The notes under the pieces: generated by a model
Databases searched by the model: none
Told to the model about the DNA's origin: nothing
What the model saw: only the letters and a program-made list of their open reading frames with translations
Program-made: the position numbers and the translations under genes
In this document: positions 1,596 to 19,964 of the stretch, piece by piece
How positions within the stretch are numbered: position 1 is the first letter of the stretch
Layout of the letters: every line of letters starts with the position of its first letter
Assembly: GCA_039588295.1 (NCBI GenBank)
Contig: JBDHAB010000012.1
Location: forward strand, 1-62,038
Source: Gemmatimonadota bacterium
Lineage (GTDB): Bacteria; Gemmatimonadota; Gemmatimonadetes; Gemmatimonadales; GWC2-71-9
DNA length: 62,038 nt
Direction: 5' to 3'

Positions 1596-1684
1596 CGACG
1601 GTGCCACGCGGCAATGCTGTGGGTGTTGTACCGGAGGCGGATCGCCTATCGTTAAAGACGTCCCCATCCGGTTCCGGTGGCAGT

Positions 1685-2770: not shown

Positions 2771-2777
2771 GAGATCA

Positions 2778-3911: not shown

Positions 3912-3917
3912 TTCCGA

Positions 3918-5009: not shown

Positions 5010-5063
5010 ATCGTGCAAGGGGTTTCCGGAGGAGGTGACTCGCCTGCGCGAAGCACAACGCAG

Positions 5064-5090
5064 AAGCGCCCGACTCAGGTCGGGCGCTTT
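5064..5090. terminator. Bidirectional intrinsic terminator
   Basis: AAGCGCCCGAC-TCAG-GTCGGGCGCTT between convergent genes. Confidence 0.75.
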
Positions 5091-5133
5091 GTCCTTGCCG
5101 TGTCCACACCCGGCCCCATGACCCGGCGTTGCG

Positions 5134-5556
5134 TCACAGGCACTTGAACACGCGGGGGGCCACGCCCCGGACGAGTGCGAAGGTTCCGATGGACTCGTCG
5201 GTGTCCGTGAGCATGACTGTCAATGACATCGTCCGACCGTCCGTACGGCCTTCGAAACGCGCGGGGTGCTCGTCCGGTGGGTCCCCGTCCCGGACCGGGC
5301 CGCCCTGCTCGAAGGTGTGCGTACCCGTCAAGCTGAAGTTGCCACGAGTATCGGTGGCGAACGGTTGGTCGATCGTTCCGTGCGCGCAGTCGTACTCGAG
5401 CGTCGCGCTGGTTCCGGCGATCACCAGCTCGATGTGGTCACCACCCCAGCTGCCGATCACGTTGGGGGCGATGAAGTCCCTGCAGGCGATGCTCGACGTG
5501 CCGACCCCTGCAACGAGTGCCGCTATCCCGAGATACCGTGTCATAAGCCCCTTCAT
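5134..5556 (-). CDS. Hypothetical lipoprotein
   Basis: Signal peptide ending SIAC; G-WGGDHI..EYDCAHGTI beta-rich domain. Confidence 0.7.
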   Translation of the reverse strand: MKGLMTRYLGIAALVAGVGTSSIACRDFIAPNVIGSWGGDHIELVIAGTSATLEYDCAHGTIDQPFATDTRGNFSLTGTHTFEQGGPVRDGDPPDEHPARFEGRTDGRTMSLTVMLTDTDESIGTFALVRGVAPRVFKCL

Positions 5557-5595
5557 GCGGTCCGCATCCAGTATACCCTCAAACTGCTGGATTCG

Positions 5596-5754
5596 TCACG
5601 CCCCACGGTCGGGCCGCACTTCCGGTGAGTTCGGATCACGGTGCGCGCTCCGCACGACGTCCACTCCGAAGACCGCCGCGGTGAGGAGCAGCAGACGCCG
5701 GAATCGCAGGGTGCGCGCGTAACGCTCAATCAGCGAGACGACGGGAAGGCGCAT
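5596..5754 (-). pseudogene. Probable truncated DUF6116-like small membrane protein
   Basis: LIERYARTLRFRRLLLLTAAVFGVDVV resembles the DUF6116 N-terminus; expected PD.LPF.DE helix is absent. Confidence 0.4.
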
Positions 5755-5858: not shown

Positions 5859-8048
5859 CTATTGGCCGCCCGCCGATTTCTTCAATCCCTGCAACTCGTC
5901 CGCGATCCATCCGGCGTCGTACACCTTCCTCAGCGCTTCGATGATACCCGCCGAGTGCACGCTCACGGTGCGCGACACCGCGTCCGAAAAGACGAAACGA
6001 TTGGGCAGCATCTGGATGTTTCCGTCGAACACCAATCCCACGACTTCGGCGTTCTTGTTGATCACGGGGCTGCCCGAATTGCCCCCGATGATGTCATTCG
6101 TGGAGACCATGTTGATCGGGGTCGAGAGATCGAGCTGATCCCGCCGCTTCTTCCATCGCGGCGCGAGCGTCCAAGGGTCCTGGTAATCGAACTCTGCCGC
6201 CCGCGCGAACAGCCCGTACATCGTGGTCTTGGGTGGGGCAAACGTCCCGTTCATCGGGTAGCGCTTCATGACACCGTCGCTGATCCGGAGCGTGAAGGTT
6301 GCGTCCGGCGGCAACGACTTGCCGTAGGCTGCGAAGATCGCCTGGCCGACCAACTCGGCGTTCGCCGAGATGATCGCTTCGAGCGGCCGGGCGCGCAGGG
6401 CCCGCTCCCGGCTCAGCGGCGCGATCTTCCGAGCCACCACCATCATCGGATCGTCCGACGCCTCGACGGCCGGTTGCCCTCCATCCATGAGGGCCGTGCG
6501 GACGGCCACGTCGGTCAATCTCGTGCCCGTCACGAGCGCCCGGGCCGCGGCCTCGGGCGTGCGCCCGTCAAGCATGGCCTGCCGGAACGGATCGTTCGCT
6601 GGTAGCTCCGACTGCGCCGCCTTGAGCTGTGCCGCGAGCGTCATCTGCTCGAGCTCGAGATCGAACGGCACATCCCGACGAATCTGGTTTCTGATGCGGT
6701 CGAGTCCCCGACCACGGAACTGCGACTGCCGGAGCGAGTCGGGCAGCGCCTCCTGCTCGGGCAACCGGATGATGCCACCGGCCAGGTTCAACAGTTGCGA
6801 GCCGCCAAAGCCGTAGTACCGGGACTGCACCGCGAATGAGCCCAGCTCTCGTTGCGCGTCGGCGATGGCGTCCCATGCGGCACCGTACTTCGCTTGCAGC
6901 TGGGGATCGCGGTCGATGCGGTTCCGAAAGTCGCGCTCGAAGACCGCTTTCTTGGCCATGAGTTCGGGGTCCCGCAGCCCGCTCAAGTACCCGCTGACCG
7001 CTTTGTGCGAGTTTTCGAGGCCGAATATTCGGTTCTCGTACTGGCGTCGGTCGGCCTCGCTCCGTGCCGCCAGGTGACGCACGATCTCCAGCTGGCGCTC
7101 GTAGCCGGCCAAGCGCGCGGGATAGCTTATGTCCCGCAGATACTCCATCTGCGCCATCGTGAGCAGCCGGCCCGTCGAGCCGGGGTTGCCCGTCACGAAG
7201 ACCAGCTCGCCTTCTTGCGCACCGTTGGTGCTCCACGTGAAGTAATGGTCGGTCTTCCGCGGCGCACCGTTCTCGTAGACGCGCAAGAGCGTCAAATCCA
7301 TGTCATAACGGGGATACGTGAAGTTGTCCGGGTCGCCACCGAAGAACGCCGCCTGCCCTTCGGGAGCCATCACCAGCCGGACGTCGGAAAACCGCTTGTA
7401 GCGGTAGAGCGAGTACATCCCGCCCCGGTAGAACGTGACCACCTGGCAGTTGAGACCGGTGGCCCCCGCACATTCCTGCTGGATCGTGTTGATCACCGAG
7501 TCGCGCTGCTCGACCTGCACGACCGGCGACGTAGCGGTGACCGCGCGGCGGATCTGTGCGGTCACGTCCTCAATCGACTGCAGCTGATCGACGTACATGC
7601 CCTGGCAGGGCTTCTCGTCTGCCGGACTGCTCGCCACGAACCCCGTTTCCTGGTAGCTGGAGTCCGCGGTAGACGACCGCGAGATACACCCGCGTGCGCA
7701 ATGGTGATTGGTCATGACCAGACCGTTGTCCGACACAAAGCTCGATGAGCACCCGGGCAGACGCACGGACGCGAGCCGGACGTGGTCGAGCCACGCCTGA
7801 TCCGGCCGGAAGCCGTACGTCTCCTCCCAGTAGTCGAGCGGCGGTGCGTCAAAGGTCCACATCGTGCCGAATTCCTTGATGAATCCGGTCGAGGTCACAT
7901 CTGGCAGAGCCGGTGCTGTCGGCGCGACCGCGGGTGCCGCTGCCTCGCGCGGGGTTGGCGACGCGTCCGGACCGGGCTGAGTACTGCAGGCAAGAAGCGC
8001 GGCCGCACCGATTACCGCCAAGGACTGAGTTCGACTGAATAGCGTCAT
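5859..8048 (-). CDS. S46 family dipeptidyl peptidase (lipoprotein)
   Basis: Lipobox [27 protein letters not shown] and [11 protein letters not shown] catalytic motifs. Confidence 0.92.
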
Positions 8049-8204: not shown

Positions 8205-8219
8205 TGGACCGGATCTTGC
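8205..8219 (+). promoter_or_regulatory. Possible sigma-54 promoter of the EPS operon
   Basis: TGGACCGGATCTTGC, GG-N10-GC with TTGC; no 25-bp element seen upstream. Confidence 0.4.
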
Positions 8220-8280
8220 GCTACCTTACGTCGACTTCCTGTGACGGCTCACCTTGGGTTCAACGGATGTCTCGAAGCGG

Positions 8281-9750
8281 ATGAAGACAATCCCGACTGG
8301 TATCGGGCCTCTTGACGAGCGGGCCGGCGGGCTGCGGGCGGGTGGCGTGTACGTGCTCGCTGGGGCGCCCGGCAGCGGCAAGCTCACCGCGGTGCTGCAG
8401 TTCCTGAACGCGGGGCTCGAGGGTGGTGAGCAGGTGGCGCTCCTGACCAACATGCCACCCGAGCACGTGTTCGAACACGCGCAGCACTGGGGCTTCGAAT
8501 TCGAGGGCGCTTGGAGGGAGGGGCGATTCCGGCTGGTGGGGTTTGCCGGCGATTTCGAGCGCCGGCTGATGAGCGCCGCGGAGCCGAAGGAGGTGTTCGA
8601 CGAGCTGTCCGACCTCATCGGACGGAACGTCGATCGGCTCGGCGTGGACCCGGGGAAGCCTCTCTGGGAGACCCGGGCTGGTACCTCGTTGGGCAGCCGG
8701 TTTCTGCAGTGGGCCCAAGGGCTGGACGCGACCTCGGTGGTGACCGTCGCGAGCGACCTCACGGACACCTTGTCGCCGGCTACCGAGTGGGTCTTGCAGA
8801 GCGCGGCGGGTGTGTTGAAAATCGAGAGGCTCCCGGACGGTCTCCGCCAGGTCTGGATCCGCCGTATCAACCCTCCGATCGACCACCAAGGAGCCGTGAG
8901 CCTGGAGCTCGTCCCGGCCAAAGGGTTTGGTGAGCCGGCCGGCCGGCTCGATCGCCGACGCACGGATGCTCCGATCGGGAGCGAGCGTCGCCTGCTCCTG
9001 CTCAAACTGGCGGACACCGTGCCGGAAGAGCTCGTGGGGTGGGCGCGGAATCGCTACGACGCCGTCGAGCTGGACCAGCCGTTGCGGCTCGTCTCGCGGC
9101 TGCAGGACGGTGAGGAGTACGGCGTTGTACTGGTGTACCTCGATCGGGGTCATAGCCGTGACGCCGCCGAAGCCTGTCGTGCCATCCGGCCGCTCACGGG
9201 CGCCCCGATCATTTTGGCGACCGACGACCGCCTGCGTGCCACGGACCGCACGCAGGCGCTCGACGCCGGCGCCAATGATTTCCTCAGCGACAACTTCAGC
9301 CTCGTTGAACTCGCGTCGCGCATCGAGCGTGCGATGGAGGCGCTGAGTGGTCTCCCGTATTCGCGTCGGGACGAGGATGAGGAGGCAGACGTGCCAGAAG
9401 GTGTATTGGACCGCGAGGAGTTCGCGCTTCGTGTGGAGGGGCATCTCTCCGATCCATGGGCCATGCCGTTCGTGTTGGTGCTGCTGCACTACGATGGTCC
9501 GAAGAGCCGCCAACTGGGCGAGGTGCTCGCCGAACATGTGCGGGACGCCGGTGACTACGTTGGGGGAACTCCGGATGGGTACGGTGTGGTGCTACAGGGA
9601 GCCCGCCCCCGACAGGCGCAGGCGTACTTGGATCGTGTGCGACATGCGTTCGCACGACTAGAGGACACCACCGACTTCGAGGTCAAGGTGCTCTCGAGCG
9701 CCACGGATGGAGAAGTGATTACCGGGGCTGTGCACGCGCCTGCCACGTAG
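8281..9750 (+). CDS. KaiC/RecA-like ATPase - pseudo-receiver - degenerate GGDEF protein (BcsE-like c-di-GMP effector)
   Basis: IPTGI..LD..GG, Walker A GAPGSGKL; REC-like PIILAT..ALDAGANDFL lacking phospho-Asp and Lys; GGDEF-like GVLDREEF..FVLVLL..RDAGDYVG without GGDEF. Confidence 0.75.
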   Translation: MKTIPTGIGPLDERAGGLRAGGVYVLAGAPGSGKLTAVLQFLNAGLEGGEQVALLTNMPPEHVFEHAQHWGFEFEGAWREGRFRLVGFAGDFERRLMSAAEPKEVFDELSDLIGRNVDRLGVDPGKPLWETRAGTSLGSRFLQWAQGLDATSVVTVASDLTDTLSPATEWVLQSAAGVLKIERLPDGLRQVWIRRINPPIDHQGAVSLELVPAKGFGEPAGRLDRRRTDAPIGSERRLLLLKLADTVPEELVGWARNRYDAVELDQPLRLVSRLQDGEEYGVVLVYLDRGHSRDAAEACRAIRPLTGAPIILATDDRLRATDRTQALDAGANDFLSDNFSLVELASRIERAMEALSGLPYSRRDEDEEADVPEGVLDREEFALRVEGHLSDPWAMPFVLVLLHYDGPKSRQLGEVLAEHVRDAGDYVGGTPDGYGVVLQGARPRQAQAYLDRVRHAFARLEDTTDFEVKVLSSATDGEVITGAVHAPAT

Positions 9751-9796
9751 GCGCGACGTCGGCACGCTCCTGCATCCTCGTCGAGACACCTAACCG

Positions 9797-11992
9797 ATGC
9801 CCTCGGTACCGCGGCGCAGGCGACCACGCGTGCCCTACTGGGTTCGCTTCTCGCTGACCGTCCTCTCGCTGGGCGCCTTCACGTCGGCCTTCGTGCTCGT
9901 GGTGCTGCCACAGCGATTCGTACTCCAGGCCGGGCTCGTGGAATCCGGCATCACGTTTCCCACAACGCTGCCGCCGTTCCTCACACCGGCCCGCGCGCCG
10001 GTCATTCGGCCTCGCATCCCGCCGCCACCGCCCATCCAACCGGGTCCGGCCGAGCGGTTTTGGCATGCCATCCTCCCGCTCCTGCGCGCCGGCCAACTCG
10101 ACGCGGCGGTGCCCCGGTTTCGTGCGTACCTCGCCGTGCACCCTGGCGATCGGGATATCTGGCGCGAGTTCGCCGTGGTACTCACCCGTCTTGGCCAGTA
10201 CGACGAGGCGGAAGCGATCTACCTGCGTCTGCTCGCCACCTCGGACGATCCCCGGCTCACGCTGCAACTCGCACGCTTACTGCGCGATCGCGGTGAGCGC
10301 GAGCGGTCGCTCGCGCTGTATCGGCAGCTGGTGGCCGCACAACCCGCCGACGCGACGCTCGCGCGTGAATTCGCGCAGGTGCTGACGTGGGCAGAAGCAT
10401 ACGGGGCAGCCGCCGACGTGTACCGGCAACTGCTCGCCCGTGATCCCGCCGACCACGGGCTGCGGCTGGACCTTGCACGGGTGCTGTATTGGGGCGGGCA
10501 GCGTACGGACGCGCTGCGGGTGCTGTGGGCGATCCCGGCGGACGCCGCGGAGGCGACGGCGGCGGGCGACCTGCGGGCGGTGCTGGAGCGTGAGCTCGCG
10601 CCACCCCCGACGACGGCCGATACGCTCCTCGAACAAGCACGACGAGCCGTCGTTGCCCAGAACCTCGACGGCGCCACACGGCTGTACGAACGACTCCTCG
10701 AACGCGACCCCGACGATCCTGCCCTGTGGCTGGAATGGGCTGATTTCCTGCAATACCAGAAGCAGGACCTGCCGGCTGCCCGGGATGCATTGACGCATCT
10801 CGGTGGGATGCGAAGTCTCACGTGGGCCGAGCGGTTTCGGCTGGCACAACTTCACGCGTGGACCGGTGAAGAACAGCAGGCCAAGTCGATGCTCCTGGGG
10901 CTCCTGGAGGAGGATTCGACACAGGCCGAGGCGTGGGCGCTGCTGGGCAACCTCTACCGCTTCGAGAACGCGAGGATCGATGCGCAGCGCGCGTATCGGA
11001 ACGCGTTGGAGCTGGATCCGCGGAGTATTCAGGCACTCGAGGGGCAGCGAGGACTCGAGCGACAGACCGCGCAGGTGATCGCGACCCGTGAACGACCGAG
11101 CGCCGGTCCCGAACTGTTCTACTTCCGCGACTCGGACGAGTACCGCCGCTTCGACATCGGCGCGCGGGCGACGTTCCTGTGGGGAGCCACGGCCGTGGTG
11201 GCTCGAGCGGGGTACCGCACGTTAGAGGGTGTCGCCCTTGCGGGGGCACCCGGCAGTGAGGAAGGACCGTTCTTCCACGTCGAGCTGGCGCGTTGGTGGC
11301 GGCTGGGGACGGTACGCACGTCGGTGTCGGCGGGCGTGGAGCATTTGGACGCCTTCGGGACCGAGCCCACCCTCGGTGTCAGGCTCGTGATTCCCGATGC
11401 AGGTGGGGCCGCCGTGGCACTGGCGTACGATCACGGGCCGGCGTTCCATCGGACCGTGACGCTTGAGAGCATCTTGGGTGTCGTGCGCTCCGACCACCTG
11501 CAGGCGTCCGTGTTCCGACCGCTTGGTCGTGGCTGGAGCCTCGCGGGTCTCGGTGCGGCGACGTCACTGCGGGGCGGCGGTACGAACAACTGGCGGTTCA
11601 ATGGATTCGTCACGCTGCGGCGCCAGGTATTGGCTCCGCTCAGCGTGGCCCTGACGTCGCAGTTCCTTGCGTTCTCCTCCGCTGCGCCGGTGCTCGACAC
11701 CCGGCGGCTCTACTGGGATCCCAAAGCCTTCTGGTCGGGCGGCGTCCAACTGGAAGCCCGTACTCGCCCGGCGAGCGCATGGCAGCTCTACGGACGCCTT
11801 ACGCCGGGAGTCGGTTTGGTGCGGGAGCGGATTGTGGGGGGACTCGACCTGGTCCCGCAGCTCGCTACGGAGGCCGGTGTGGGGTACGAGTCTCCCCGCA
11901 TCGTATTTGCGGGCGGGCTTGCCTACCTCCGTGGTCGAGAAGGCGAATACAACTCCTTTGGGGCGAACGTGAGCCTGGCGGTCCGGTACTAG
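9797..11992 (+). CDS. TPR + C-terminal beta-barrel polysaccharide export protein (PgaA/BcsC-like)
   Basis: N-terminal hydrophobic helix, Pro-rich linker, multiple TPRs, amphipathic beta-strands ending VSLAVRY; YWDP motif. Confidence 0.75.
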   Translation: MPSVPRRRRPRVPYWVRFSLTVLSLGAFTSAFVLVVLPQRFVLQAGLVESGITFPTTLPPFLTPARAPVIRPRIPPPPPIQPGPAERFWHAILPLLRAGQLDAAVPRFRAYLAVHPGDRDIWREFAVVLTRLGQYDEAEAIYLRLLATSDDPRLTLQLARLLRDRGERERSLALYRQLVAAQPADATLAREFAQVLTWAEAYGAAADVYRQLLARDPADHGLRLDLARVLYWGGQRTDALRVLWAIPADAAEATAAGDLRAVLERELAPPPTTADTLLEQARRAVVAQNLDGATRLYERLLERDPDDPALWLEWADFLQYQKQDLPAARDALTHLGGMRSLTWAERFRLAQLHAWTGEEQQAKSMLLGLLEEDSTQAEAWALLGNLYRFENARIDAQRAYRNALELDPRSIQALEGQRGLERQTAQVIATRERPSAGPELFYFRDSDEYRRFDIGARATFLWGATAVVARAGYRTLEGVALAGAPGSEEGPFFHVELARWWRLGTVRTSVSAGVEHLDAFGTEPTLGVRLVIPDAGGAAVALAYDHGPAFHRTVTLESILGVVRSDHLQASVFRPLGRGWSLAGLGAATSLRGGGTNNWRFNGFVTLRRQVLAPLSVALTSQFLAFSSAAPVLDTRRLYWDPKAFWSGGVQLEARTRPASAWQLYGRLTPGVGLVRERIVGGLDLVPQLATEAGVGYESPRIVFAGGLAYLRGREGEYNSFGANVSLAVRY

Positions 11993-11993
11993 G

Positions 11994-13334
11994 ATGGCGT
12001 CCCGAGCTCGCACGTTCGCGTCGATCCTGATCATCGTCGGCGTCGTGGGGGGGACCGTCTGGTTCACCATTTGGGCGCTGAGTTCCCCGCTCAGCGTCCA
12101 GCGGTTTCTCGTACGCCTCGTGTTGATCAGTCTGATCATGTTCCTGGCCATTCTGTTCGCTCGCTACTTCTCGCTTCTGTGGTTCGCGTTTCTCCAGCTT
12201 CTCGAGAAGACGATGCGGCCGCGCCGGGCGGGGGCACCGTTGCCACCGGTCTCGGTGATCGTACCCGCATACAACGAAGGCACGGTGCTGGAGTCGGCCA
12301 TCGATGCGTTGCTGCGGATCGACTACCCCACGTTCGAGGTGATCATCGTCGATGACGGTTCCACTGATGACACCCTGGCGATCGCCCGACGGTTGGAAGG
12401 TCGACATGCGAGTATCGAGGTCCGTGTCTTCACAAAGGCCAACGGCGGAAAAGCGACGGCGTTGAACACCGGGATTGCCCAAGCCCGTTTTGGCTTCGTG
12501 CTGTGCATGGATGCCGACTCGGCGATCGCACCGGACAGCCTCCGTGAGGCCATGCCTCACTTCCGCGATCAGGCGGTCGGGGCCGTCGCGGGAAACGTCA
12601 AGGTCGTCAATCGGGAGAACTGGCTCACGCGACTGCAGGCGCTCGAATACATTGAGGGCCTGAACATGCCGCGCCGCGCCCAGGGCTTCATTGCGGCCGT
12701 CAACATCGTCCCCGGTCCGGTGGGACTGTTCCGCGTCGAGGCGTTGCAGGAGGTCGGTGGGTACGACAACGATACGTTCGCCGAGGATGCCGATCTGACC
12801 CTCAAGTTGATCAGCGCGGGGTGGAAGATCGTGTACGAGGAGAACGCGGTCGCCTGGACGCAGGCACCGACGCGGGTCCTGGATCTCGTGCAGCAACGCT
12901 ATCGCTGGACCCGGGGTATCCTGCAGGCGGTTCGCAAGCGGAAGTGGATACTGCTGAAGCCGTTTCCCGACTTCCCGCTGTGGCTCTCCGGCATGGAGAT
13001 GGCGTTCGAGGGCATTCTCTGGCCCGTGCTCAATGTCTACGGTCATCTCTTCTTCGCGCTCGTGGCAATGTTGTACGGCGTGGGAGAGCTCCTGCTCTAT
13101 TGGTGGATTCTGCTGACGCTGCTCGATCTGGTGGCCGCACTGGTAACGGTGTCGATGGAAGAGGAATCGCTGTCACTCGTTCCACTGGCCATCGTGTATC
13201 GGTTCTTCTTCATCCTGTTCCTTGACGTCACCAAGACGTTTGCCGCGGTCGAAGAAGTGTTTAGACTCGGTATGGAGTGGGGCAAGCTCCGTCGGATTGC
13301 CTATAGTGAGGAGGGCGGAGCCAGTGCGTCGTAG
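11994..13334 (+). CDS. Processive GT2 glycosyltransferase (PgaC/IcaA-like synthase)
   Basis: VPAYNE, DDGSTD, NGGKA, DADS, AEDADL and QRYRW motifs; N- and C-terminal TM helices; no PilZ domain. Confidence 0.9.
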   Translation: MASRARTFASILIIVGVVGGTVWFTIWALSSPLSVQRFLVRLVLISLIMFLAILFARYFSLLWFAFLQLLEKTMRPRRAGAPLPPVSVIVPAYNEGTVLESAIDALLRIDYPTFEVIIVDDGSTDDTLAIARRLEGRHASIEVRVFTKANGGKATALNTGIAQARFGFVLCMDADSAIAPDSLREAMPHFRDQAVGAVAGNVKVVNRENWLTRLQALEYIEGLNMPRRAQGFIAAVNIVPGPVGLFRVEALQEVGGYDNDTFAEDADLTLKLISAGWKIVYEENAVAWTQAPTRVLDLVQQRYRWTRGILQAVRKRKWILLKPFPDFPLWLSGMEMAFEGILWPVLNVYGHLFFALVAMLYGVGELLLYWWILLTLLDLVAALVTVSMEEESLSLVPLAIVYRFFFILFLDVTKTFAAVEEVFRLGMEWGKLRRIAYSEEGGASAS

Positions 13335-13361
13335 TCCACGGCCACGCTGAGGTGAATCTGC

Positions 13362-13568
13362 ATGGGTGTCATTGATCTGCTGGTCACCATCATCGTCGTC
13401 ACGATTCTCGTGACGATCGCCCTTGGCGTGATGACCTATATCGCGTACAAGCTGCGGCTGTCGCGCCGCCCGGCTTCGGCCGACGAAGACGACACGGGCC
13501 CACGCTACTTCGTGGCCCACGAGCCGCCCGGTGCCGAGCCGCCACCGAGCGAGGACCATGTCCCCTAA
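13362..13568 (+). CDS. 68-aa single-TM protein in EPS operon
   Basis: GAGGTG RBS; one long hydrophobic helix then YKLR; overlaps start of next gene. Confidence 0.7.
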   Translation: MGVIDLLVTIIVVTILVTIALGVMTYIAYKLRLSRRPASADEDDTGPRYFVAHEPPGAEPPPSEDHVP

Positions 13569-15426
13569 GCGCGACCCGGTTCCCCGCGCGCGGTCCGCAC
13601 TCTCGTGGCTGCGGGGCTTCCTGTTGTTGGGTGTGCTCGCTGCCGGCGTGATCGCCGCCGGGGTGAAGCTGTGGCAGGACATCGACATCCAACGGCTCAC
13701 CCGAAGCGCGACACTGGCCGAACCCGTCACCATCCCTGACGCGCTGCCGCCGGCCAGCCCCGCCGTCGCGACTCGACCGTACCGAACGGCACTGTTCTAC
13801 TCCCACGCCAGCGCCCGCTACTTTCCCGACTCGGCATACTACTCGAACCACTTGGATCGCTGGGAAGGGCTCCTCGCGGAAACGGGTGCCAGCGTGTCCC
13901 GGGTCTCCAGCGCCGCCGAGGTAACTGCGCTCGACCCCCGCGACGTGATCGTCGTCCCGGCCGCCGTCTGTCTGAACCCCGGGGAGGTGGACGTCCTGCG
14001 GGCGCACGCAGACCGCGGGGGCGGACTCGTCTTGACGTGGGCAGTGGGAGCGCGCGATGACGCCTGTGAATGGCGCGGGTGGGATGCCGTGGCCATGCTC
14101 ACCGGGAGCGGCGACGTGCGTGAGGTCGAGCAGCGGAGTGGACTCTATCTCACGATCCCCGCCGATCTCCCACTTTCCCCCGGCTTCGACCCCGGAACCC
14201 GAATCGAGCTCCGGTCGGAATCGCAGCTCGCTGGCGAAACGCGTGGGGCCCGGGTGTATTGGTCCGACTGGGCGCTCAATGTCGCCCCGGTGGAGGACGC
14301 GGACTGGATCAACGCCGCTGCGTTGACCAGCGTGACCGACGCGGGCGGACGCGTGGTCTGGTTCGGATTCCGGCTCGGCCAGGGCGCTCGTCCCCAAGAC
14401 GAACAGCGCCTCGAGGGACTCGTCCGCAACGGTGTGCGGTGGGCCGCGCGCGTGCCGACGGTGGAAATCCTTCCCTGGCGGGGCGGTGCTCGGGCCGCGC
14501 TGCTGATTGCGCAGGATGTCGAGTCCGAGTTCCCCAACGCCGCGGCCCTTGCGGCGATCGCAAGGCGGAAGTCGGTACCGGTCACCTTCTTCGTCGTCTC
14601 GCGGCTCGCGCTCGACTATCCGCACCTCGCCGACACGCTGGTCACGGTTGGTGAGGTCGGCAGTCAGACGTCGGACCATATGGTGCTGTCCGGCCTGACG
14701 TTTGCCGATCAGCGCGCCCGATTGAGCCGCAGCTGGGCCGAGGTGCGTGGCTGGACCGGAGACTCGGCGCACGGGCTCCATCCGCCGGAGGAGCGGTTCG
14801 ACGGAAACACGTTGCGGGCCTGGCGACAGGTCGGTGGGTCGTATCTCGTGGCAGTGAACGAAGCACGCACCGGCAGCCCGGAGGTACTGGAGACCTCTGA
14901 AGGCGAGGTTGTGCTGCTGCCGCGGATCATCAAGGACGACTACAACGTCTTCGTGCAGGAAAGCGCGCTGCGATCCCGACGCCTCACTGAAGCCTATCTC
15001 GAAGGGATGATCAAGGTGCGGTCACTGGGCGGCCTCGCGATCGTGTCGGTTCGGAGTCAGGTGGGCGGCAATCCCGGACGCGTCGGCGTGATTGGTGAGA
15101 TCGTCGATAGCGCCCGCGCGAACGGCGATTGGTGGCTCGCCTCGGGACGGGAGATTGCGACGTGGTGGGCTGCACGACGACTGACGTCGCTACGCCTCAC
15201 GGCCTCGGGTGAGGACCGGCTGGCGCTCGCGATCACCGCACCGGCCACGTCGTCGTTGGTGGGCGCGTGGGTCCGCGTGTTACTGCCGGACGCGACCGCG
15301 ACGTGGATTCCGACCGTCGGGGGTCGGCCGATCAGCTACGCCGAAACGCCGTTTGGCCTGCGCATTCCCGTGTCCGATCTCGCTCCAGGCGAGCGGGTCG
15401 TGGTCGTGTTGCGCAGGGAGGGCTGA
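13558..15426 (+). CDS. Membrane-anchored polysaccharide deacetylase (CE4/NodB-like) with N-terminal GATase-like domain
   Basis: TM anchor; AQDVE, VTFFVV, EVGSQTSDH, GLHPPEE and WWLASGREIATWW NodB-type motifs. Confidence 0.75.
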   Translation: MSPKRDPVPRARSALSWLRGFLLLGVLAAGVIAAGVKLWQDIDIQRLTRSATLAEPVTIPDALPPASPAVATRPYRTALFYSHASARYFPDSAYYSNHLDRWEGLLAETGASVSRVSSAAEVTALDPRDVIVVPAAVCLNPGEVDVLRAHADRGGGLVLTWAVGARDDACEWRGWDAVAMLTGSGDVREVEQRSGLYLTIPADLPLSPGFDPGTRIELRSESQLAGETRGARVYWSDWALNVAPVEDADWINAAALTSVTDAGGRVVWFGFRLGQGARPQDEQRLEGLVRNGVRWAARVPTVEILPWRGGARAALLIAQDVESEFPNAAALAAIARRKSVPVTFFVVSRLALDYPHLADTLVTVGEVGSQTSDHMVLSGLTFADQRARLSRSWAEVRGWTGDSAHGLHPPEERFDGNTLRAWRQVGGSYLVAVNEARTGSPEVLETSEGEVVLLPRIIKDDYNVFVQESALRSRRLTEAYLEGMIKVRSLGGLAIVSVRSQVGGNPGRVGVIGEIVDSARANGDWWLASGREIATWWAARRLTSLRLTASGEDRLALAITAPATSSLVGAWVRVLLPDATATWIPTVGGRPISYAETPFGLRIPVSDLAPGERVVVVLRREG

Positions 15427-15446: not shown

Positions 15447-16681
15447 TCAATCGCGATACAGCCGCTTCACTACCGGTCCCAATGACAGTCCCTGCACGAT
15501 GATCGAGAATGCCACGACCACGTAGGTGATCGCCACGATCACCTGCTTCTCCGGCCCGCTCGGTAAGGAAAGCGCGAGCGCGACCGAGATTCCTCCGCGC
15601 AGCCCGCCCCAGGTCAAGATCTTGACGGCGTGCGGGCTGAAGCCCCGAAGGCGACGGAGCAGGGCTATGGGAGTCGCCACCGCAAGCCAGCGCGCGCCGA
15701 GAACGATCACGATGCACGCGGCGCCGGCGACGAACGTCTCGAGCCCGAATGTTACGACCAACAGCTCGAACCCGATCAACATGAACAGCAGCGCGTTCAT
15801 GAGGTCGTCTACGAGTTCCCAAAACAAGTCGAGTCGCTCGCGGGTCGTGGATGACATGGCGAACATCCGTCCGGGTTGCCGATCAGGATGCCCGCTACCA
15901 CCATGGCCAGCGCGCCGGACAGATGCAGCGTGAGCGCGAGGGCATAGCCACCGGTTACCACGGCGAGGGTGATGAGGATCTCCACCTCGTGCTGGTCGAC
16001 GCGCCGGAGCATGTGATAGGCGAGCCAGCCCACCACGAACCCGAATGCCAGCCCCCCCACGACCTCCTGCAGCACGATGCGCCCCAGCTCGCCGGCGGTG
16101 AACTCACCGTGCCCTCCGACGAACGGCAACAACAGCGTGAACATGACGACGCCGACGCCGTCGTTGAAGAGCGACTCACCGGCGATCTTCATCTCAATCG
16201 ACTTTGGCACCGCGACTCGCTTGAGGATCCCTAGCACCGCCACCGGATCGGTCGGGGAGATGAGCGCCCCGAAAATCAAGCAGTACCAGAAATCGACGGT
16301 GATGCCCAGGGTTCGAAACAGGAAGTACGAGAGCGTCCCGACGATCGCGGTCGACGTGAGTACGCCGAACGTGGCCAACAGACCGATGACGCGGCGCTGC
16401 GATACGAGGTCGTCGAGGTTGACGTGCATCGCGCCGGCGAAGAGCAACGCGCCCAGCATGCCGTGGAGCAGCGTTCGGTCGAAGTCGATGGTATGGATCG
16501 TCCGCGCCAGTTCCGCGCCACCCCCGATCCCCAGCTTGCCGACGGCGATGAGTCCAAGCGAGAACACCAGGGCGATCACCATGATGCCGATCGTCGTGGG
16601 AAGCCGCAGAAATCGATGATTGAGCCAGGCGAATACCGCGGCGAACGTGATCAGGACGGCGAGCAGGTTGAAGATGTCCAT
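15447..16681 (-). pseudogene. CPA1 Na+/H+ antiporter (NhaP-like), frameshifted
   Basis: LLFAGA, ISPTDPVAV, GESLFNDG and WGGLRGGISVALALSLP motifs split over two frames; one extra C near 15873-15875 restores GNPGRMFAMS. Confidence 0.85.
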
Positions 16682-16794
16682 TGGCGTCCTCCGGGACCCC
16701 TGGCAGCGGTTGGCGGACGAAGTTGGCACCGCGGGACGACGAGGACAACTGGGAGTGAGCGGCAGGTTCCGACCGGAAGCCGTAGATTGAAAAG

Positions 16795-18198
16795 GTGAGG
16801 ATCGACGCCGCCTGCCGCACACGCGCTGTGCTCGCACTGGGCCTACTCGTCACGGGCTGCACGAGCGCGAGGGTGCCACCGGAGGTTGCTCAACCGGAGG
16901 CGGCGGACCCCTGTCTCGTCCTGACGGGTGCGGGATCGCCTCGTGATACGCTGCGCGTCGCCCTCGCCGACTACGTGAGCGCCCGCCATGCGCCCGTCGC
17001 GCACACAGAGGCCGAACGCTTCCTCTTCCGCCAGATCTACGAGACGCTGGTTCGAGTGGACTGCGAAGGGACCATCCGACCCGCGCTCGCTCGCGCTTGG
17101 CGCTCGGCCGATGGCGGAAGACGCTGGATCTTCACGCTGCGGGACGGCGCGCGGTTCTGGGACGGGACGCCAGTCACCGCTCGGGAGATCGTCGCGGGCT
17201 GGCGTGACCACGGCGTGATCGACGCCACATGGGACGGCGTCGCCGTTCGCGACGCGCGAACGATCGATCTCGCGTTCACCGAGCCGCATGATGCCGCGGC
17301 GTTCGCGTCACCCACGTTCGCCATCGTCAAGCGCATCGCGGAGTCCGCGTGGCCGCTTGGCACGGGGGTACTGTGGATCAGGGATACGGGCAGTGGCGTC
17401 ACGGGCATCGTTCGTGCGAGCCCCGTACCGTGGACGACCGGAGCGCCCCTCCTGGAGCTCCACGCGGCCCCGGGGGCCGACGGCCGCGATCTCCTCGATC
17501 AGGGCGCCGACCTCATGGTGACGCGCGAGCCCGCGGTACGGAGCTACGCAACGGCGAACCCAGAGTTCCTCGCGGTGCCGCTCCCGTGGGAGCGCGTGTA
17601 CGTGCTAGTGTCGCCGTCTCGGGTCCGGGCCGGTGTCACGGGTCAGTTCGCTCGCGTGATTCGACAGGAGATGGCGGGCGAAGCGGTCCGGGCTGATGCG
17701 CGCGCTGCAGCGCCGCCGTACTGGTGGGAGCAGCTCGGACGCTGCCAGTTGCCCGCCGCCGAACGCGTGCCCCCGGCCTCGCGGTCGGAGCGGGTCGTGT
17801 ACGAGCGGGACGATCCCGTGGCGCGCGACCTCGCTGAACGGCTCGTTGCAGTGGCCGGCACCGTCGACGCCGGCGTGGTGCCCGGATTCGCGCAATCGGA
17901 GGCTGTGGCCGTCGGACTGACGACGGCCTCTTTTGCGACCGCCCTCCGCGCGGGCGGTGACCTCGCCTATGTCCTTTCGCTGCCGACCACGGCCTTCCTT
18001 CCGTGTCGGCAGGCACGGGACGTGCGCCGTCGGATGCCGTGGATCGCCCCACTCGGTGACTGGGGACTTGGTCGGTCCCTTCTGCCCGTGGTCGAGACGC
18101 GGGCGTACCTGCTCGTGCGTCGCGGCGTCGCGAACCTGACGGTCGACGGCGACGGTGGCGTCCGTGTCATGGCCCAGCCGGCGCCCGCGTCACGATGA
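16795..18198 (+). CDS. ABC-type solute-binding protein family 5-like lipoprotein
   Basis: Lipobox VTGC; QIYETLV..PALA..W..FTLRDGARFWDGTPVTA signature; no permease nearby. Confidence 0.8.
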   Translation: MRIDAACRTRAVLALGLLVTGCTSARVPPEVAQPEAADPCLVLTGAGSPRDTLRVALADYVSARHAPVAHTEAERFLFRQIYETLVRVDCEGTIRPALARAWRSADGGRRWIFTLRDGARFWDGTPVTAREIVAGWRDHGVIDATWDGVAVRDARTIDLAFTEPHDAAAFASPTFAIVKRIAESAWPLGTGVLWIRDTGSGVTGIVRASPVPWTTGAPLLELHAAPGADGRDLLDQGADLMVTREPAVRSYATANPEFLAVPLPWERVYVLVSPSRVRAGVTGQFARVIRQEMAGEAVRADARAAAPPYWWEQLGRCQLPAAERVPPASRSERVVYERDDPVARDLAERLVAVAGTVDAGVVPGFAQSEAVAVGLTTASFATALRAGGDLAYVLSLPTTAFLPCRQARDVRRRMPWIAPLGDWGLGRSLLPVVETRAYLLVRRGVANLTVDGDGGVRVMAQPAPASR

Positions 18199-19964
18199 CA
18201 TTCCGCACGCGGCTCCTCCTCGCGTTCGCGGCGGTCGTGGCGGTCCCGCTCGTCGTACTTGGCTTCGGGGTGCGCCGGGAGATGAGTAACCGGCTCTCCA
18301 CACAGTACGAGGGTCGCGTGGCCTCGCTCGTGGCCATCATCGAGGACGACCTCTCCAACGAGAGCGAAGCGATTGCCGCGCGCCTTGCTGCCCTCCGAGA
18401 GGCGCTTCGCGAGGACAACCGGTTTCGACTTGCAGCCGTGCAGGCGGTTCCGACCGAGCGGCCGTACCTGCTGGATTACGCATCGGATGCGATGCACCTC
18501 GCCGGTCTCTCCATGTTTCAGATCCAGGATGCGGCGGGGCGCATCCTGAGTTCGGGACACTTCCGCAACGAGTACGACCGGCTCGATCCCGAGGTGCCGT
18601 TGCGACTGGCAGTCGTTGGCCCGCGGCCGGCGCTGGTCCGGGCCCGAACTCCCGAAGGTCCGGTGCTCGCATTGGGCCGGCTGGACTCGCTGCAGGTGGG
18701 CGGACACCGGTTTGTACTGGTTGGTGGGGTTACGGTCGACCGGATGTTCCTCACCAGGCTCGTGCGCGACCCGGATCTCACGGTCTCCCTCCTCGCCCCG
18801 CACGCCACCATGTCGTCCGACGAGCGAGTCGTGGATCTGCTGGACTCGCTGCGGGAGGAAGGCGTGGATCGGGCCGCGCTGGAGGACCGGCTACTGGTCG
18901 TGGGTGCGCTCGAGCTCCCATACGTGGATTGGGTTCCGGATTCGGAGCAGCAGGCGAGCGTGCTCCTGACGTACCCGCTCACTTCACTGGAGGAGCTGCG
19001 CCGGAGCGTCGACACGTGGTTCCTGATCGCCATTGCGGCGACGGTCGCCGTGGTCCTGCTCATCGCAGGGTGGATGTCCACGCGCATCAGTCGGCCCATC
19101 CGTGAACTTGCGCGACGCACGGAACAGGTGAACCTCGACCGACTCGATGTCGACTTCGCGAGTGATCGACGCGACGAGGTCGGTGCGCTCACGCGGTTGC
19201 TTGGCCGCATGGTCGAGCGACTGCGCGGCGATACCGTGCGGCTGCGCGAGATCGAACGGCGCGCGACGGTCGGGGAACTGGCTCGCCAGGTGAACCACGA
19301 TGTGAAGAACGGGCTCATGCCGATCCGCAATGTGTTCCGGCATCTCACGGCAGTGGCTCGTGACGAGCCGGCGGCGCTCCCGGGAGTCTTCGTCGAGCGG
19401 CAAGGCACCGTCGAGTCGGGGATCGCCTATCTCGAGCGGCTGGTCACCAATTACGCGCGTCTGTACCCCAGCCTCGAGGTCCAAGCCTGTGACGTCAACA
19501 CCGTGGTTCGCGAGGTGACGGCCGGAGCGCGCCGTTCGGTGGATGTGGAACTCGACCTCCGGATCGGCGAGGGCATTGTGGCGATCAACACCGACCCTCT
19601 CGTGTTGCGGCGGATCTTGGAGAACCTGGTGCGCAACGCCATGGATAGCCTCGAAGGCGTGCCTGGTCGAGTGACGGTGACGGCCGCACCGATGGATGGA
19701 GCGCATCGGGGCGTTCGGATCACGGTTGGCGACACGGGAAAGGGAATGACGCAGGAAGAGTTGGACCATGCGTTCGACGATTTCTACACCACCAAGGCCA
19801 GCGGCACCGGGCTCGGGCTGTCGATCGTGCGACGCCTCGTAGCGGACCTAGGTGGCGCGCTCCGCGTCACGACCGCACCTGGCGAAGGAACCACCTTCAC
19901 GATCGAGCTCACCGAGCTCACGCCGCAGCCGACGACGAATGACCGCAGGGCGGCACGAGCATGA
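18195..19964 (+). CDS. HAMP sensor histidine kinase (NtrY-like)
   Basis: 2 TM + periplasmic domain, [15 protein letters not shown]-box, NLVRNA, DTGKG, FYTTK..GTGLGL. Confidence 0.92.

What the first reader, a model, noticed from the sequence alone, without database searches (positions are those of the whole stretch)
8205..15426. Candidate undescribed synthase-dependent exopolysaccharide system: BcsE-like regulator + PgaC-like synthase + TPR/barrel + deacetylase
Seen: five tightly coupled + strand genes (gaps 46, 1 and 27 bp, then an overlap). They encode an ATPase-REC-GGDEF-like protein, a TPR/beta-barrel, a processive GT2 (D,D,D,QxxRW) without PilZ, a 68-aa TM peptide and a NodB-like enzyme. 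Established: Pga uses PgaABCD with c-di-GMP sensed by PgaC/PgaD, and enterobacterial cellulose systems use BcsE with PilZ-containing BcsA. Inference: this is a hybrid in which a BcsE-type c-di-GMP sensor controls a PNAG/chitin-like synthase. I do not recognise that combination from described Pga, Ica, Pel, Alg or Bcs loci.
Basis: partly seen in the sequence, partly recalled or inferred. Interest (0 to 1): 0.88.

Follow-up and report, generated by a model that had tools for sequence, protein, structure and literature searches.

The report
BcsE-like regulator on PNAG-type operon
This five-gene operon of an uncultured Gemmatimonadota bacterium encodes a sugar-polymer synthase, a likely outer-membrane export channel and a distant relative of BcsE, the E. 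coli cellulose regulator, which is predicted to sense c-di-GMP and would switch on secretion of a likely N-acetyl-sugar biofilm polymer; this pairing was not found in the papers searched.

Summary
Five co-directional genes at 8281-15426 (+) have gaps of 46, 1 and 27 nt, then an overlap. Only the first gene's start was wrong: it is 8281 or 8254, not 8205.

Gene 1 is a true remote homologue of E. coli BcsE. Its predicted fold matches BcsE chains best, over all three domains. Profile-profile comparison gives 92.6% and 97.7% probability. Both c-di-GMP I-sites of BcsE (RATD in REC*, R..GD in GGDEF*) are invariant in 35 of 35 relatives.

The rest is not a pga operon. The GT2 is 29% identical to PgaC and scores below NCBIfam's cut-off. 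The TPR porin, the 68-aa peptide and the CE4 protein show no homology to PgaA, PgaD or PgaB.

The genome has seven GGDEF proteins. No BcsB or PilZ was found.

GT2 lies beside the regulator in 15 of 18 Gemmatimonadota loci; 11 hold all five genes in order. Where the synthase is missing, the regulator keeps the peptide as its neighbour, as BcsE keeps BcsF.

The CE4 active site is non-canonical in this genus. c-di-GMP binding, regulator-peptide contact and polymer identity are untested.

The scan has noted this system before on other genomes. I found no paper describing it. Verdict: new variant of a known kind.

The parts
8281..9750 (+). BcsE-like regulator, 489 aa (alternative TTG start at 8254). 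It has three domains: a KaiC-like NTPase* (residues 1-225), a degenerate receiver REC* (about 236-356) and a degenerate GGDEF* (about 375-486).
   Evidence: Pfam KaiC E 8.6e-12. The AlphaFold model has pLDDT 85.9. The top five Foldseek PDB hits are E. coli BcsE chains, E 1.2e-17 to 2.4e-16 over 505-530 columns. The N-terminal domain matches KaiC at Z 25.1, rmsd 2.1 A, 201 residues. The C-terminal half alone (pLDDT 91.8) best matches BcsE 217-523, 6ybb_E, E 1.3e-9. hhalign against a BcsE alignment gives 92.6% probability, E 4.6e-7.
8362..8385 (+). Walker A-like loop GAPGSGKL. It lacks the Ser/Thr that normally follows the Lys.
   Evidence: across the 35 sequences of A1 the Lys position is K in 30, R in 4 and T in 1. 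The next residue is L in 31 and F in 4, never S or T.
9235..9246 (+). REC* I-site II, R319-A-T-D322. It is the counterpart of BcsE R306-A-T-D.
   Evidence: R319 and D322 are invariant in 35 of 35 sequences. hhalign aligns this stretch on the LRATD of BcsE. The role of the BcsE motif comes from PMC7840130 (passages).
9541..9555 (+). GGDEF* I-site I, R421-D-A-G-D425. It is the counterpart of BcsE R415-T-G-D418.
   Evidence: R421, G424 and D425 are invariant in 35 of 35 and in 25 of 25 sequences down to 23% identity. hhalign places the motif on BcsE RTGD. It lies just before the beta-hairpin of the GGDEF-like fold.
9797..11992 (+). TPR protein with a probable C-terminal outer-membrane beta-barrel, 731 aa. 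It is the predicted export scaffold and porin.
   Evidence: TPR_19 E 1.2e-23 and other TPR families. Weak PrsT, PgaA and BcsC TPR matches lie far below their cut-offs. Residues 430-731 resemble PgaA_barrel, BCSC_C and PelB barrel clusters by ESM features, 0.94 (a lead only). There is no significant profile match to the E. coli PgaA or BcsC sequences. It follows the regulator in the relatives.
11994..13334 (+). Membrane GT2 synthase, 446 aa, PgaC/IcaA-like, without a PilZ domain.
   Evidence: Glyco_tranf_2_3 E 1.2e-40. TIGR03937 PgaC_IcaA scores 202 bits against a cut-off of 422; NodC 110 bits; CelA 93 bits. It is 29% identical to E. coli PgaC over 389 aa, E 1e-42. Motifs DDGSTD, DAD, ED and QRYRW are present. 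It is the most conserved gene of the set, 55-87% identity across loci.
13362..13568 (+). 68-aa single-pass membrane peptide with a cytoplasmic tail carrying a conserved [RW][YF]F motif. It is the predicted membrane anchor for the regulator.
   Evidence: Translation. In the 17-sequence alignment A3, Y26, R35 and F50 are invariant. The peptide lies directly after the regulator in loci that lack the synthase: L004 and L005, L006 and L091.
13558..15426 (+). Membrane-anchored periplasmic CE4-fold protein, 622 aa from the ATG at 13558 (631 aa from the GTG at 13531). It has an N-terminal transmembrane helix, a weakly GATase1-like region, a CE4 domain and a C-terminal domain.
   Evidence: PF01522 E 3.4e-9, 37.2 bits against 23.1; a weak Glyco_hydro_42M match. 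The motifs here read DVE, QTSDH, HPPEE, DDY and VRSQ. There is no similarity to PgaB. ESM features place it with clusters of about 630-aa 'polysaccharide deacetylase family' proteins.

Best explanation
The five genes form one operon for a synthase-dependent exopolysaccharide system in which a distant BcsE homologue is predicted to bind c-di-GMP and would activate or assemble a PilZ-less PgaC-like synthase.

Shown:
- The operon and its conservation.
- The three-domain, BcsE-like fold of gene 1 and its homology to BcsE.
- Invariance of both I-site motifs.
- The processive-GT2 motifs.
- No PilZ or BcsB found in the genome.
- Diguanylate cyclases in the genome, one of them 10 kb away.

Inferred:
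1. Intercalated c-di-GMP likely binds between R319ATD (REC*) and R421..GD425 (GGDEF*), as in BcsE.
2. The 68-aa peptide likely tethers the regulator at the inner membrane through its cytoplasmic aromatic tail, as BcsF does for the BcsE N-terminal domain.
3. The membrane-bound regulator would then promote polymerisation by the GT2.
4. The polymer, probably a HexNAc homopolymer of the PNAG kind, would pass the periplasm along the CE4-fold protein and the TPR scaffold, and leave through the C-terminal barrel.
5. The KaiC-like domain probably no longer hydrolyses ATP here and serves in oligomerisation and docking.
For: Operon: spacing. Only these five genes are shared with relatives; none of the six flanking products searched matched in L001-L011, and one (the histidine kinase) gave a single weak match, in L092. 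Among 18 loci from a 401-genome phylum sample, 11 have all five genes in order and 15 have GT2 beside the regulator.

BcsE homology:
- Foldseek top five hits are BcsE chains over the whole length.
- The C-terminal half matches BcsE 217-523 best.
- hhalign of A1 against BcsE alignment A4: 92.6%, E 4.6e-7, 409 collinear columns.
- hhalign of the wider family A7 against A4: 97.7%, E 1.5e-12, 419 columns.
- 3 of 40 distant family members give sub-threshold, collinear PF10995 hits.

c-di-GMP:
- R319, D322, R421 and D425 are each invariant in 35 of 35 sequences.
- The same motifs are functionally validated in BcsE (PMC7439463 sections 8-9; PMC7840130 passages).
- The genome holds 7 GGDEF proteins, including a dCache-HAMP-GGDEF at 25686-27467.
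- A GAF-GAF-GGDEF cyclase lies three genes upstream of the regulator in L005 and L006.

No other sensor or synthase was found: the GT2 has no PilZ and the genome shows no PilZ or BcsB.

Peptide as partner: regulator and peptide stay adjacent in two separate clades that lack the neighbouring synthase. In E. coli the BcsF tail binds the BcsE N-terminal domain (PMC11470070 passages).

HexNAc polymer: PgaC_IcaA is the best NCBIfam match. There is a CE4 partner. The catalytic domain is 48% identical to enzymes annotated 'bifunctional polysaccharide deacetylase/GT2'.
Against: - Pfam's BcsE model does not match the protein or the genome.
- The family profile against the single E. coli BcsE sequence is not significant (0.3%).
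- Sequence search of the PDB finds KaiC and receivers, not BcsE.
- BcsE acts through BcsRQ and a PilZ-bearing BcsA. None of these is in the operon, so the step from regulator to synthase has no known model.
- The peptide shows no supported homology to BcsF (6.9%). It sits after the GT2, where PgaD and IcaD sit, so it could be a synthase cofactor instead.
- The CE4 protein of this genus lacks the usual metal and acid residues, which weakens the deacetylation step and hence the HexNAc inference.
- The GT2 is below the PgaC cut-off, so the product could be another polymer.
- More distant family members keep canonical Walker A and B motifs, so ATP may matter in the family.
Confidence: 0.6

Rival explanations
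1. It is simply a divergent Pga/PNAG operon. Gene 2 would be PgaA, gene 3 PgaC, gene 4 PgaD and gene 5 PgaB. c-di-GMP would be sensed at the GT2-peptide interface as in PgaCD, and gene 1 would be an accessory of minor or unrelated role.
For: PgaC_IcaA is the best NCBIfam match for the GT2, and PgaA is among the hits for gene 2. The C-terminal barrel resembles the PgaA barrel by ESM features. The peptide sits directly after the synthase, and a CE4 protein is present. JGI's automatic names call the orthologues PgaC.
Against: - The GT2 scores 202 bits against a cut-off of 422, and PgaA 40.8 against 366.65.
- There is no similarity to PgaB (E 0.046) or PgaD (0.3%).
- Similarity to PgaA is limited to TPR (E 0.001), and the barrel profile does not match.
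- Gene order differs from pgaABCD.
- The peptive has one helix, and it stays with the regulator, not the GT2, when the synthase is not adjacent.
- Gene 1 is present in all the loci, which were found through it. Conversely, I did not search for GT2 operons that lack it.
Confidence: 0.15
2. Gene 1 is an ATP-driven, KaiC-like assembly or switch protein, not a c-di-GMP receptor. The RxxD motifs would serve domain contacts.
For: The N-terminal domain matches KaiC at Z 25. The Walker A lysine is kept in 30 of 35 sequences and an Asp at the Walker B position in 31 of 35. Distant members have GKS/T and VIDS motifs. An earlier scan note reports a related operon in a lineage said to lack c-di-GMP signalling (e1-5287252, not checked here).
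Against: The residue after the Walker lysine is never Ser or Thr in 35 of 35 sequences. Two separate motifs known to hold c-di-GMP in BcsE are invariant, while the receiver and cyclase catalytic residues have decayed. The genome encodes seven GGDEF proteins.
Confidence: 0.15
3. Gene 5 is not a deacetylase. It would be a catalytically silent periplasmic scaffold or co-polymerase, in the manner of BcsB, and the polymer need not be an N-acetyl sugar.
For: Across 16 orthologues the second Asp of the first CE4 motif is Val in 14, Thr in one and Gly in one. The first metal His is Gln in 10 of 16. The acid His is Arg in the window, L003, L077, L079 and L084. The protein is anchored in the inner membrane and has two further domains.
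Against: Four orthologues keep H-x-x-x-H and 11 of 16 keep the last His. The CE4 Pfam score is above the cut-off. GT2 relatives in g21 genomes are fused to a canonical CE4 domain (E 3.1e-29), which ties this synthase type to deacetylation.
Confidence: 0.3

Closest known systems
E. coli/Salmonella BcsE with its anchor BcsF (type II cellulose secretion)
   Same: - The same three-domain order, NTPase*-REC*-GGDEF*.
- Collinear profile homology.
- Both I-sites conserved, one of them literally RATD (PMC7840130).
- Receiver and cyclase catalytic residues lost.
- A gene for a small single-helix membrane peptide accompanies it.
   Different: - 14-16% identity, and it fails Pfam PF10995.
- The Walker A glycines and lysine are largely kept.
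- The phylum is Gemmatimonadota, whereas the FEMS review places BcsE in beta- and gamma-Proteobacteria (PMC8892547 passages).
- It is linked to a PgaC-like GT2, not to BcsA. No BcsB or PilZ was found in the genome, and no BcsR/BcsQ or BcsG gene lies in the operon.
- The peptide is not detectably homologous to BcsF.
PgaABCD (E. coli) / IcaADBC (staphylococci), the PNAG systems
   Same: It is a synthase-dependent layout: a membrane GT2 of the PgaC/IcaA type (best NCBIfam match; 29% identity), a TPR-plus-barrel exporter, a small membrane protein after the synthase, and a CE4-fold periplasmic protein.
   Different: - All four proteins fall below the family cut-offs or show no homology.
- The order is regulator, porin, synthase, peptide, CE4.
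- The CE4 protein has another architecture and altered motifs.
- There is an extra BcsE-like regulator.
- The peptide has one helix. That PgaD has two is recalled, not checked here.
PelD of the Pseudomonas Pel system
   Same: It is a degenerate GGDEF domain that keeps only the I-site and acts as the c-di-GMP receptor of a PilZ-less synthase-dependent system. PMC7439463 section 8 names PelD as the closest fold to BcsE GGDEF*.
   Different: PelD is itself membrane-anchored with a GAF domain (recalled). It has no KaiC-like or receiver domain. PelD chains were not among the Foldseek rows shown for my models.
Bifunctional polysaccharide deacetylase/GT2 enzymes of actinobacteria
   Same: These are the closest annotated catalytic domains in the plasmid collection, 48% identity over about 240 residues (H12 and H15). 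A GH18-CE4-GT2 fusion of this kind is the only close GT2 in the g21 genomes that keep the regulator-peptide pair.
   Different: There the CE4 is fused to the GT2 and is canonical. No TPR porin or BcsE-like gene was examined beside them. That such enzymes (MatB) make PNAG is recalled from the literature and was not checked here.

Membership tests
BcsE (Pfam PF10995 CBP_BcsE / GIL) | Match to the family's curated sequence model above its cut-off (25 bits) | tested here: not met
   No PF10995 hit for gene 1 at E <= 0.01, and none in the whole genome, while the E. coli control rang. Among 40 distant family members, 3 give sub-threshold hits of 22.9, 17.1 and 16.2 bits.
BcsE (Pfam PF10995 CBP_BcsE / GIL) | Tripartite architecture: degenerate RecA/KaiC-like NTPase, degenerate receiver, degenerate GGDEF | tested here: met
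   Models with pLDDT 85.9 and 91.8. The whole-length best Foldseek hits are BcsE chains. KaiC matches residues 1-220 at Z 25.1. The C-terminal half matches BcsE 217-523 best, then REC-GGDEF cyclases.
BcsE (Pfam PF10995 CBP_BcsE / GIL) | Detectable homology to BcsE sequences | tested here: met
   hhalign of A1 against an 11-sequence BcsE alignment: 92.6%, E 4.6e-7, 409 columns. A7 against the same: 97.7%, E 1.5e-12. Against the single E. coli sequence the result is not significant.
BcsE (Pfam PF10995 CBP_BcsE / GIL) | GGDEF* I-site (R415-x-G-D) and REC* I-site (R306-A-T-D) | tested here: met
   R421..G424-D425 and R319-A-T-D322 are each invariant in 35 of 35 sequences and are aligned on the BcsE motifs. 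Motif definitions come from PMC7439463 and PMC7840130.
BcsE (Pfam PF10995 CBP_BcsE / GIL) | Part of a cellulose (BcsA/BcsB, BcsRQ, BcsG) secretion system | tested here: not met
   The operon partners are a PgaC-like GT2, a TPR porin, a peptide and a CE4 protein. No BcsB or PilZ was found in the 96% complete genome. BcsQ and BcsR were not searched genome-wide.
BcsE (Pfam PF10995 CBP_BcsE / GIL) | Binds c-di-GMP; recruited to the membrane by a small peptide (BcsF) | not testable with these tools
   A conserved single-helix peptide accompanies the regulator, but homology to BcsF is not supported. The complex predictor was not available.
PgaABCD PNAG system | PgaC equivalog model TIGR03937 above its cut-off (422.3 bits) | tested here: not met
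   202.1 bits; 29% identity to E. coli PgaC.
PgaABCD PNAG system | PgaA porin (TIGR03939), PgaB (CE4 plus C-terminal hydrolase-like domain), PgaD | tested here: not met
   PgaA model 40.8 bits against 366.65. BLASTP finds TPR similarity only, E 0.001. PgaB E 0.046. PgaD 0.3%.
PgaABCD PNAG system | Product is poly-beta-1,6-GlcNAc | not testable with these tools
   There is no chemical evidence; this is inferred only from GT2 and CE4 family resemblance.
Processive membrane GT2 synthases (cellulose, chitin, hyaluronan, PNAG type) | D, D, D and Q-x-x-R-W motifs (definition recalled) with flanking transmembrane segments | tested here: met
   DDGSTD (residue 120), DAD (173), ED (264-265) and QRYRW (301). 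Pfam Glyco_tranf_2_3, Glyco_trans_2_3 and Chitin_synth_2 match. PDB sequence matches include hyaluronan and cellulose synthases.
CE4 (NodB-type) metal-dependent deacetylases | Pfam PF01522 above its cut-off | tested here: met
   37.2 bits against 23.1.
CE4 (NodB-type) metal-dependent deacetylases | Asp-His-His metal triad with catalytic Asp and His (five motifs, definition recalled) | tested here: not met
   The window has DVE in place of DD, QTSDH in place of H-x-x-x-H, and Arg in place of the last His. Of 16 orthologues, 4 keep H-x-x-x-H and 11 keep the last His. No structure model was made, so motif assignment rests on the alignment.
KaiC/RecA-type active ATPases | Walker A G-x4-G-K-[ST] | tested here: not met
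   The loop reads GAPGSGKL. The residue after Lys is L or F in 35 of 35 sequences, and Lys is replaced in 5 of 35.
Response-regulator receivers | Conserved phospho-acceptor Asp at the end of strand 3 | tested here: not met
   At that position (C-half residue 57, placed from the strands of the model) the 25 sequences of A2 have D in 7, E in 6 and other residues in 12. Pfam Response_reg scores 17.2 bits against 30.2.

The most novel reading that the evidence does not exclude
BcsE is only the enterobacterial, most decayed tip of an old family of KaiC-REC-GGDEF* proteins. Together with a one-helix membrane anchor, these form a portable c-di-GMP control module, ATP-using in its less decayed members, that different PilZ-less polysaccharide synthases have adopted. 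The Gemmatimonadota operon would show the module on a PNAG-type machine, and the regulator-peptide pairs that stand without a synthase would show it moving.
Probability: 0.4. Interest if true: 0.75.

Novelty: new variant of a known kind. Interest (0 to 1): 0.62.

Why it matters
How PilZ-less synthases sense c-di-GMP has been solved case by case (PgaCD, PelD, Alg44, BgsA). BcsE has been treated as a speciality of E. coli-type cellulose systems in beta- and gamma-Proteobacteria.

A homologue with both I-sites intact, in a distant phylum and on a PgaC-like synthase, would show that BcsE-style control is older and more general than cellulose. It would offer a simpler system, without BcsRQ, in which to ask what the regulator actually does to a synthase. 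It would also give intermediate forms that explain the origin of BcsE's dead ATPase domain.

It further points to a likely biofilm polymer in Gemmatimonadota, an abundant soil and sediment phylum with few cultured members.

Tried and rejected
1. Complex prediction of the regulator N-terminal domain with the peptide was not available. The queue was full, and searches came before the waiting time had ended. The contact is therefore untested.

2. An apparent peptide-CE4 fusion in L007, L008 and L010 (script output) was an artefact: a stop codon was dropped by the aligner. Translation shows the stop, so I rejected the fusion.

3. Peptide against BcsF: the comparison with the single E. coli sequence looked suggestive (E 8.8e-4, 23%). 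With a 6-sequence BcsF alignment it fell to 6.9%, so homology is not claimed. Peptide against PgaD gave nothing.

4. The barrel of gene 2 against E. coli PgaA and BcsC by hhalign: 0.2% and 1.0%. This is inconclusive, since the targets were single sequences.

5. PDB sequence search with the regulator profile found only KaiC and receivers among the 60 rows shown.

6. The CE4 protein had no match in the plasmid collection. It matched 0 of 401 sampled Pseudomonadota genomes at E <= 1e-15. That search had no positive control.

7. Context of distant family members. One protein found nothing in metagenome contigs. A 5-sequence alignment found one 2.3-kb contig, where the regulator is followed by a small TPR protein. 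Cluster look-up gave no organism names.

8. The promoter and terminator scan found no more than chance.

9. A GT2 tree against IcaA, NodC and MatB was not built, because no named sequences of these were on hand.

10. An earlier count said 13 of 18 loci have all five genes. A recount gives 11 of 18.

Full report
**Observation.** The window is contig C12 of a 4.5-Mb, 96% complete genome. Its closest protein relatives are labelled Gemmatimonadota. One search lists five + strand ORFs:
- 8254-9750
- 9797-11992
- 11994-13334
- 13362-13568
- 13531-15426

The start at 8205 is impossible because of an in-frame TGA at 8242-8244. The 35 aligned homologues begin at the ATG at 8281.

The flanks are a divergent S46 peptidase gene (5859-8048, - strand) and a convergent Na+/H+ exchanger gene. 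None of the six flanking products searched matched in L001-L011; one, the histidine kinase, gave a single weak match in L092. The five genes therefore travel as a unit.

**Gene 1 is a remote BcsE homologue.** Pfam sees only a KaiC-type ATPase domain (E 8.6e-12) and a sub-threshold receiver.
- An AlphaFold model built on 35 homologues (pLDDT 85.9) has E. coli BcsE chains as its five best PDB matches: 9fo7_E, 9fnn_U, 9fnn_E, 9fp0_E and 9fp2_D. E-values run from 1.2e-17 to 2.4e-16 over 505-530 columns at 14-16% identity.
- TM-scores are low (0.28-0.34), as expected when three domains are hinged differently.
- Residues 1-220 superpose on KaiC at Z 25.1, rmsd 2.1 A, 201 residues.
- The C-terminal half modelled alone (25 sequences, pLDDT 91.8) best matches BcsE 217-523 (6ybb_E, E 1.3e-9). 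Next come the receiver-GGDEF cyclases WspR, DgcR and PleD.

Sequence evidence agrees only at profile level:
- Pfam PF10995 finds nothing in the protein or the genome.
- The PDB sequence search finds only KaiC and receivers.
- The family profile against the single E. coli sequence is not significant.
- Against an 11-sequence BcsE alignment (E. coli plus ten enterobacterial-order loci), hhalign gives 92.6% probability, E 4.6e-7, over 409 collinear columns.
- A profile of 23 more distant family members gives 97.7%, E 1.5e-12, over 419 columns.
- Three of 40 distant members give collinear sub-threshold PF10995 hits.

**The c-di-GMP sites survive while the enzymatic sites have decayed.** BcsE binds an intercalated c-di-GMP dimer between R415-T-G-D of GGDEF* and R306-A-T-D of REC* (PMC7439463 sections 8-9; PMC7840130 passages).
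- The window protein has R421-D-A-G-D425 and, literally, R319-A-T-D322. All four Arg and Asp positions are invariant in 35 of 35 homologues.
- The GGDEF* motif is also invariant in 25 of 25 sequences down to 23% identity.
- hhalign places both motifs on the BcsE motifs.
- By contrast, the acceptor position of the receiver is Asp in only 7 of 25 sequences.
- The GG(D/E)EF turn reads PDGYG.
- The Walker A loop reads GAPGSGKL, and the residue after Lys is never Ser or Thr in 35 of 35.
- More distant members keep GKS/T and a VIDS Walker B. The family therefore spans forms that look ATP-competent and forms that look dead, with E. coli BcsE at the dead end.

**The other four genes.**
- *GT2.* It carries the processive-synthase motifs and no PilZ. 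Its best NCBIfam match is PgaC_IcaA, at 202 bits against a cut-off of 422. It is 29% identical to E. coli PgaC. It is up to 48% identical, over the catalytic core, to enzymes annotated as bifunctional deacetylase/GT2.
- *Gene 2.* It is TPR-rich. Its last 300 residues resemble PgaA, BcsC and PelB barrels by language-model features (0.94). That is a lead only, since hhalign to the E. coli PgaA and BcsC sequences is not significant.
- *The 68-aa peptide.* It has one transmembrane helix, a basic stretch and a tail with an invariant Phe in a [RW][YF]F motif.
- *Gene 5.* It is a membrane-anchored periplasmic protein with a CE4 domain above Pfam's cut-off. It has no similarity to PgaB and its motifs are altered. 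The second Asp of the first motif is Val in 14 of 16 orthologues (Thr and Gly in the other two). The first metal His is Gln in 10 of 16. The acid His is Arg in the window's genus and in two others.

**Conservation.** The regulator family has 99 clusters in the word-indexed search; all those that carry an organism name are Gemmatimonadota. It has 102 representatives at E < 1e-30 in the exhaustive search. In a sample of 401 Gemmatimonadota genomes it is found in 23 (17 of 147 genera), 19 of them at full length including the window's genome. Of the 18 other full-length loci:

| Loci | Content |
|---|---|
| 11 (L077-L087) | All five genes in the same order |
| L090, L092 | Regulator, TPR protein, GT2 and CE4 (peptide not detected by tblastn) |
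| L093 | Regulator, TPR protein and GT2 |
| L089 | Regulator, TPR protein, GT2 and peptide |
| L088 | A 4.3-kb contig ending in the TPR gene |
| L091, L094 | No synthase nearby |

In a separate collection, 6 of 11 loci have all five genes and 2 are cut by contig ends. Across these loci the GT2 stays at 55-87% identity while the regulator falls to about 30%.

**The regulator-peptide pair.** In two clades the synthase is not adjacent, yet a peptide of the same family directly follows the regulator:
- L004 and L005, L006 (a 67-aa ORF) and L091.
- The genomes of L004-L006 show no close GT2 (none at E <= 1e-40; their completeness is unknown).
- They carry a GAF-GAF-GGDEF cyclase three genes upstream of the regulator.
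- The g21 genomes carry a GH18-CE4-GT2 fusion elsewhere.

This is the best evidence that the peptide partners the regulator rather than the synthase. It parallels BcsF, whose cytosolic tail adds a strand to the sheet of the BcsE N-terminal domain (PMC11470070 passages). Homology between the peptide and BcsF is not supported, and the complex predictor was not available.

**Genome context for c-di-GMP.** The genome encodes seven GGDEF proteins. One is a dCache-HAMP-GGDEF in this window at 25686-27467. No PilZ domain and no BcsB were found. The BcsE-like protein therefore has no cellulose synthase to serve.

**Comparison with what is in print.**
- The FEMS review places BcsE in type II bcs operons of beta- and gamma-Proteobacteria (PMC8892547 passages).
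- A search for 'BcsE-like', 'BcsE homolog(s)' or 'GIL domain' returned 20 papers. None used 'BcsE-like', and none concerned a non-cellulose system, judged from titles and abstract starts.
- 'Gemmatimonadetes' with 'exopolysaccharide' and 'PgaC' returned none.
- The operon survey of Bundalovic-Torma et al. does not mention Gemmatimonad* in its main text, and it left bcsE out of its queries (PMC7112194 passages). Its supplementary figures were not read.
- The epsSMASH preprint does not mention Gemmatimonad* in its main text either, and its supplements are closed.

**Earlier notes of this scan.** They describe the same operon type in other Gemmatimonadota genomes and related KaiC-GGDEF* regulators in Rhodothermales, Ignavibacteria and WOR-3. 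These are unchecked AI notes and I read them after my own tests. They agree with my reading. They also fit the Ignavibacteriota clusters seen for the CE4 protein. I did not verify the other phyla.

**Verdict.** This is a synthase-dependent exopolysaccharide system of a new variant. It is neither a pga nor a bcs operon, and its regulator is a genuine, distant BcsE homologue with both c-di-GMP sites intact. Ligand binding, the regulator-peptide-synthase contacts, the activity of the CE4 protein and the polymer itself remain to be shown.

Noticed in passing
window 15447-16837 (- strand): The Na+/H+ exchanger gene is split into two overlapping ORFs. ORF 15809-16837 matches Pfam Na_H_Exchanger profile positions 3-244 and ORF 15447-15866 matches positions 250-374. 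This is a probable frameshift or assembly error.
   Followed up: no
window 19961-21319 (+ strand): The sigma-54 activator (receiver plus AAA+ domain) ends at 298 aa, inside the Sigma54_activat domain (profile positions 1-159 of 168). Another ORF follows at 20867-21319. The gene may be interrupted. It sits behind an SBP-like gene and a HAMP histidine-kinase gene (16795-19964).
   Followed up: no
window 25686-27467 (- strand): A dCache-HAMP-GGDEF diguanylate cyclase (GGDEF E 3e-49) lies 10 kb downstream of the operon. It is one of seven GGDEF proteins in the genome.
   Followed up: partly
G000 contig C1, 275707-279013 (locus L076 covers part): A second GT2, 34% identical to the operon's synthase, lies 1.6 kb from another GGDEF-domain gene on the same strand. 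This may be a second c-di-GMP-linked polysaccharide locus.
   Followed up: no
window 1550-5722 (+ strand): Upstream genes for a radical SAM protein, a CBM9-containing protein, a GHL10-like protein and a 197-aa protein without family. The two of these that were searched, the GHL10-like and the 197-aa protein, were not found beside the operon in any relative.
   Followed up: partly
L005 99-8514 and L006 3674-12685: In a clade at about 40% identity the regulator-peptide pair sits between a GAF-GAF-GGDEF cyclase, a GT4 glycosyltransferase and a POT transporter upstream, and a GCS2-CBS protein downstream. No PgaC-like synthase was found in those genomes.
   Followed up: partly
L107 1480-4191 (- strand), genome G172: A 903-aa fusion of a GH18-like domain, a canonical CE4 domain (E 3.1e-29) and a GT2 is the closest GT2 (40% identity) in genomes whose regulator-peptide pair stands alone.
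   Followed up: partly
L109 102-2233: A distant family member with a canonical Walker A (GGLGTGKT) and both I-site motifs is followed, with overlapping stop and start, by a 162-aa membrane-anchored TPR protein on a 2.3-kb metagenome contig.
   Followed up: partly
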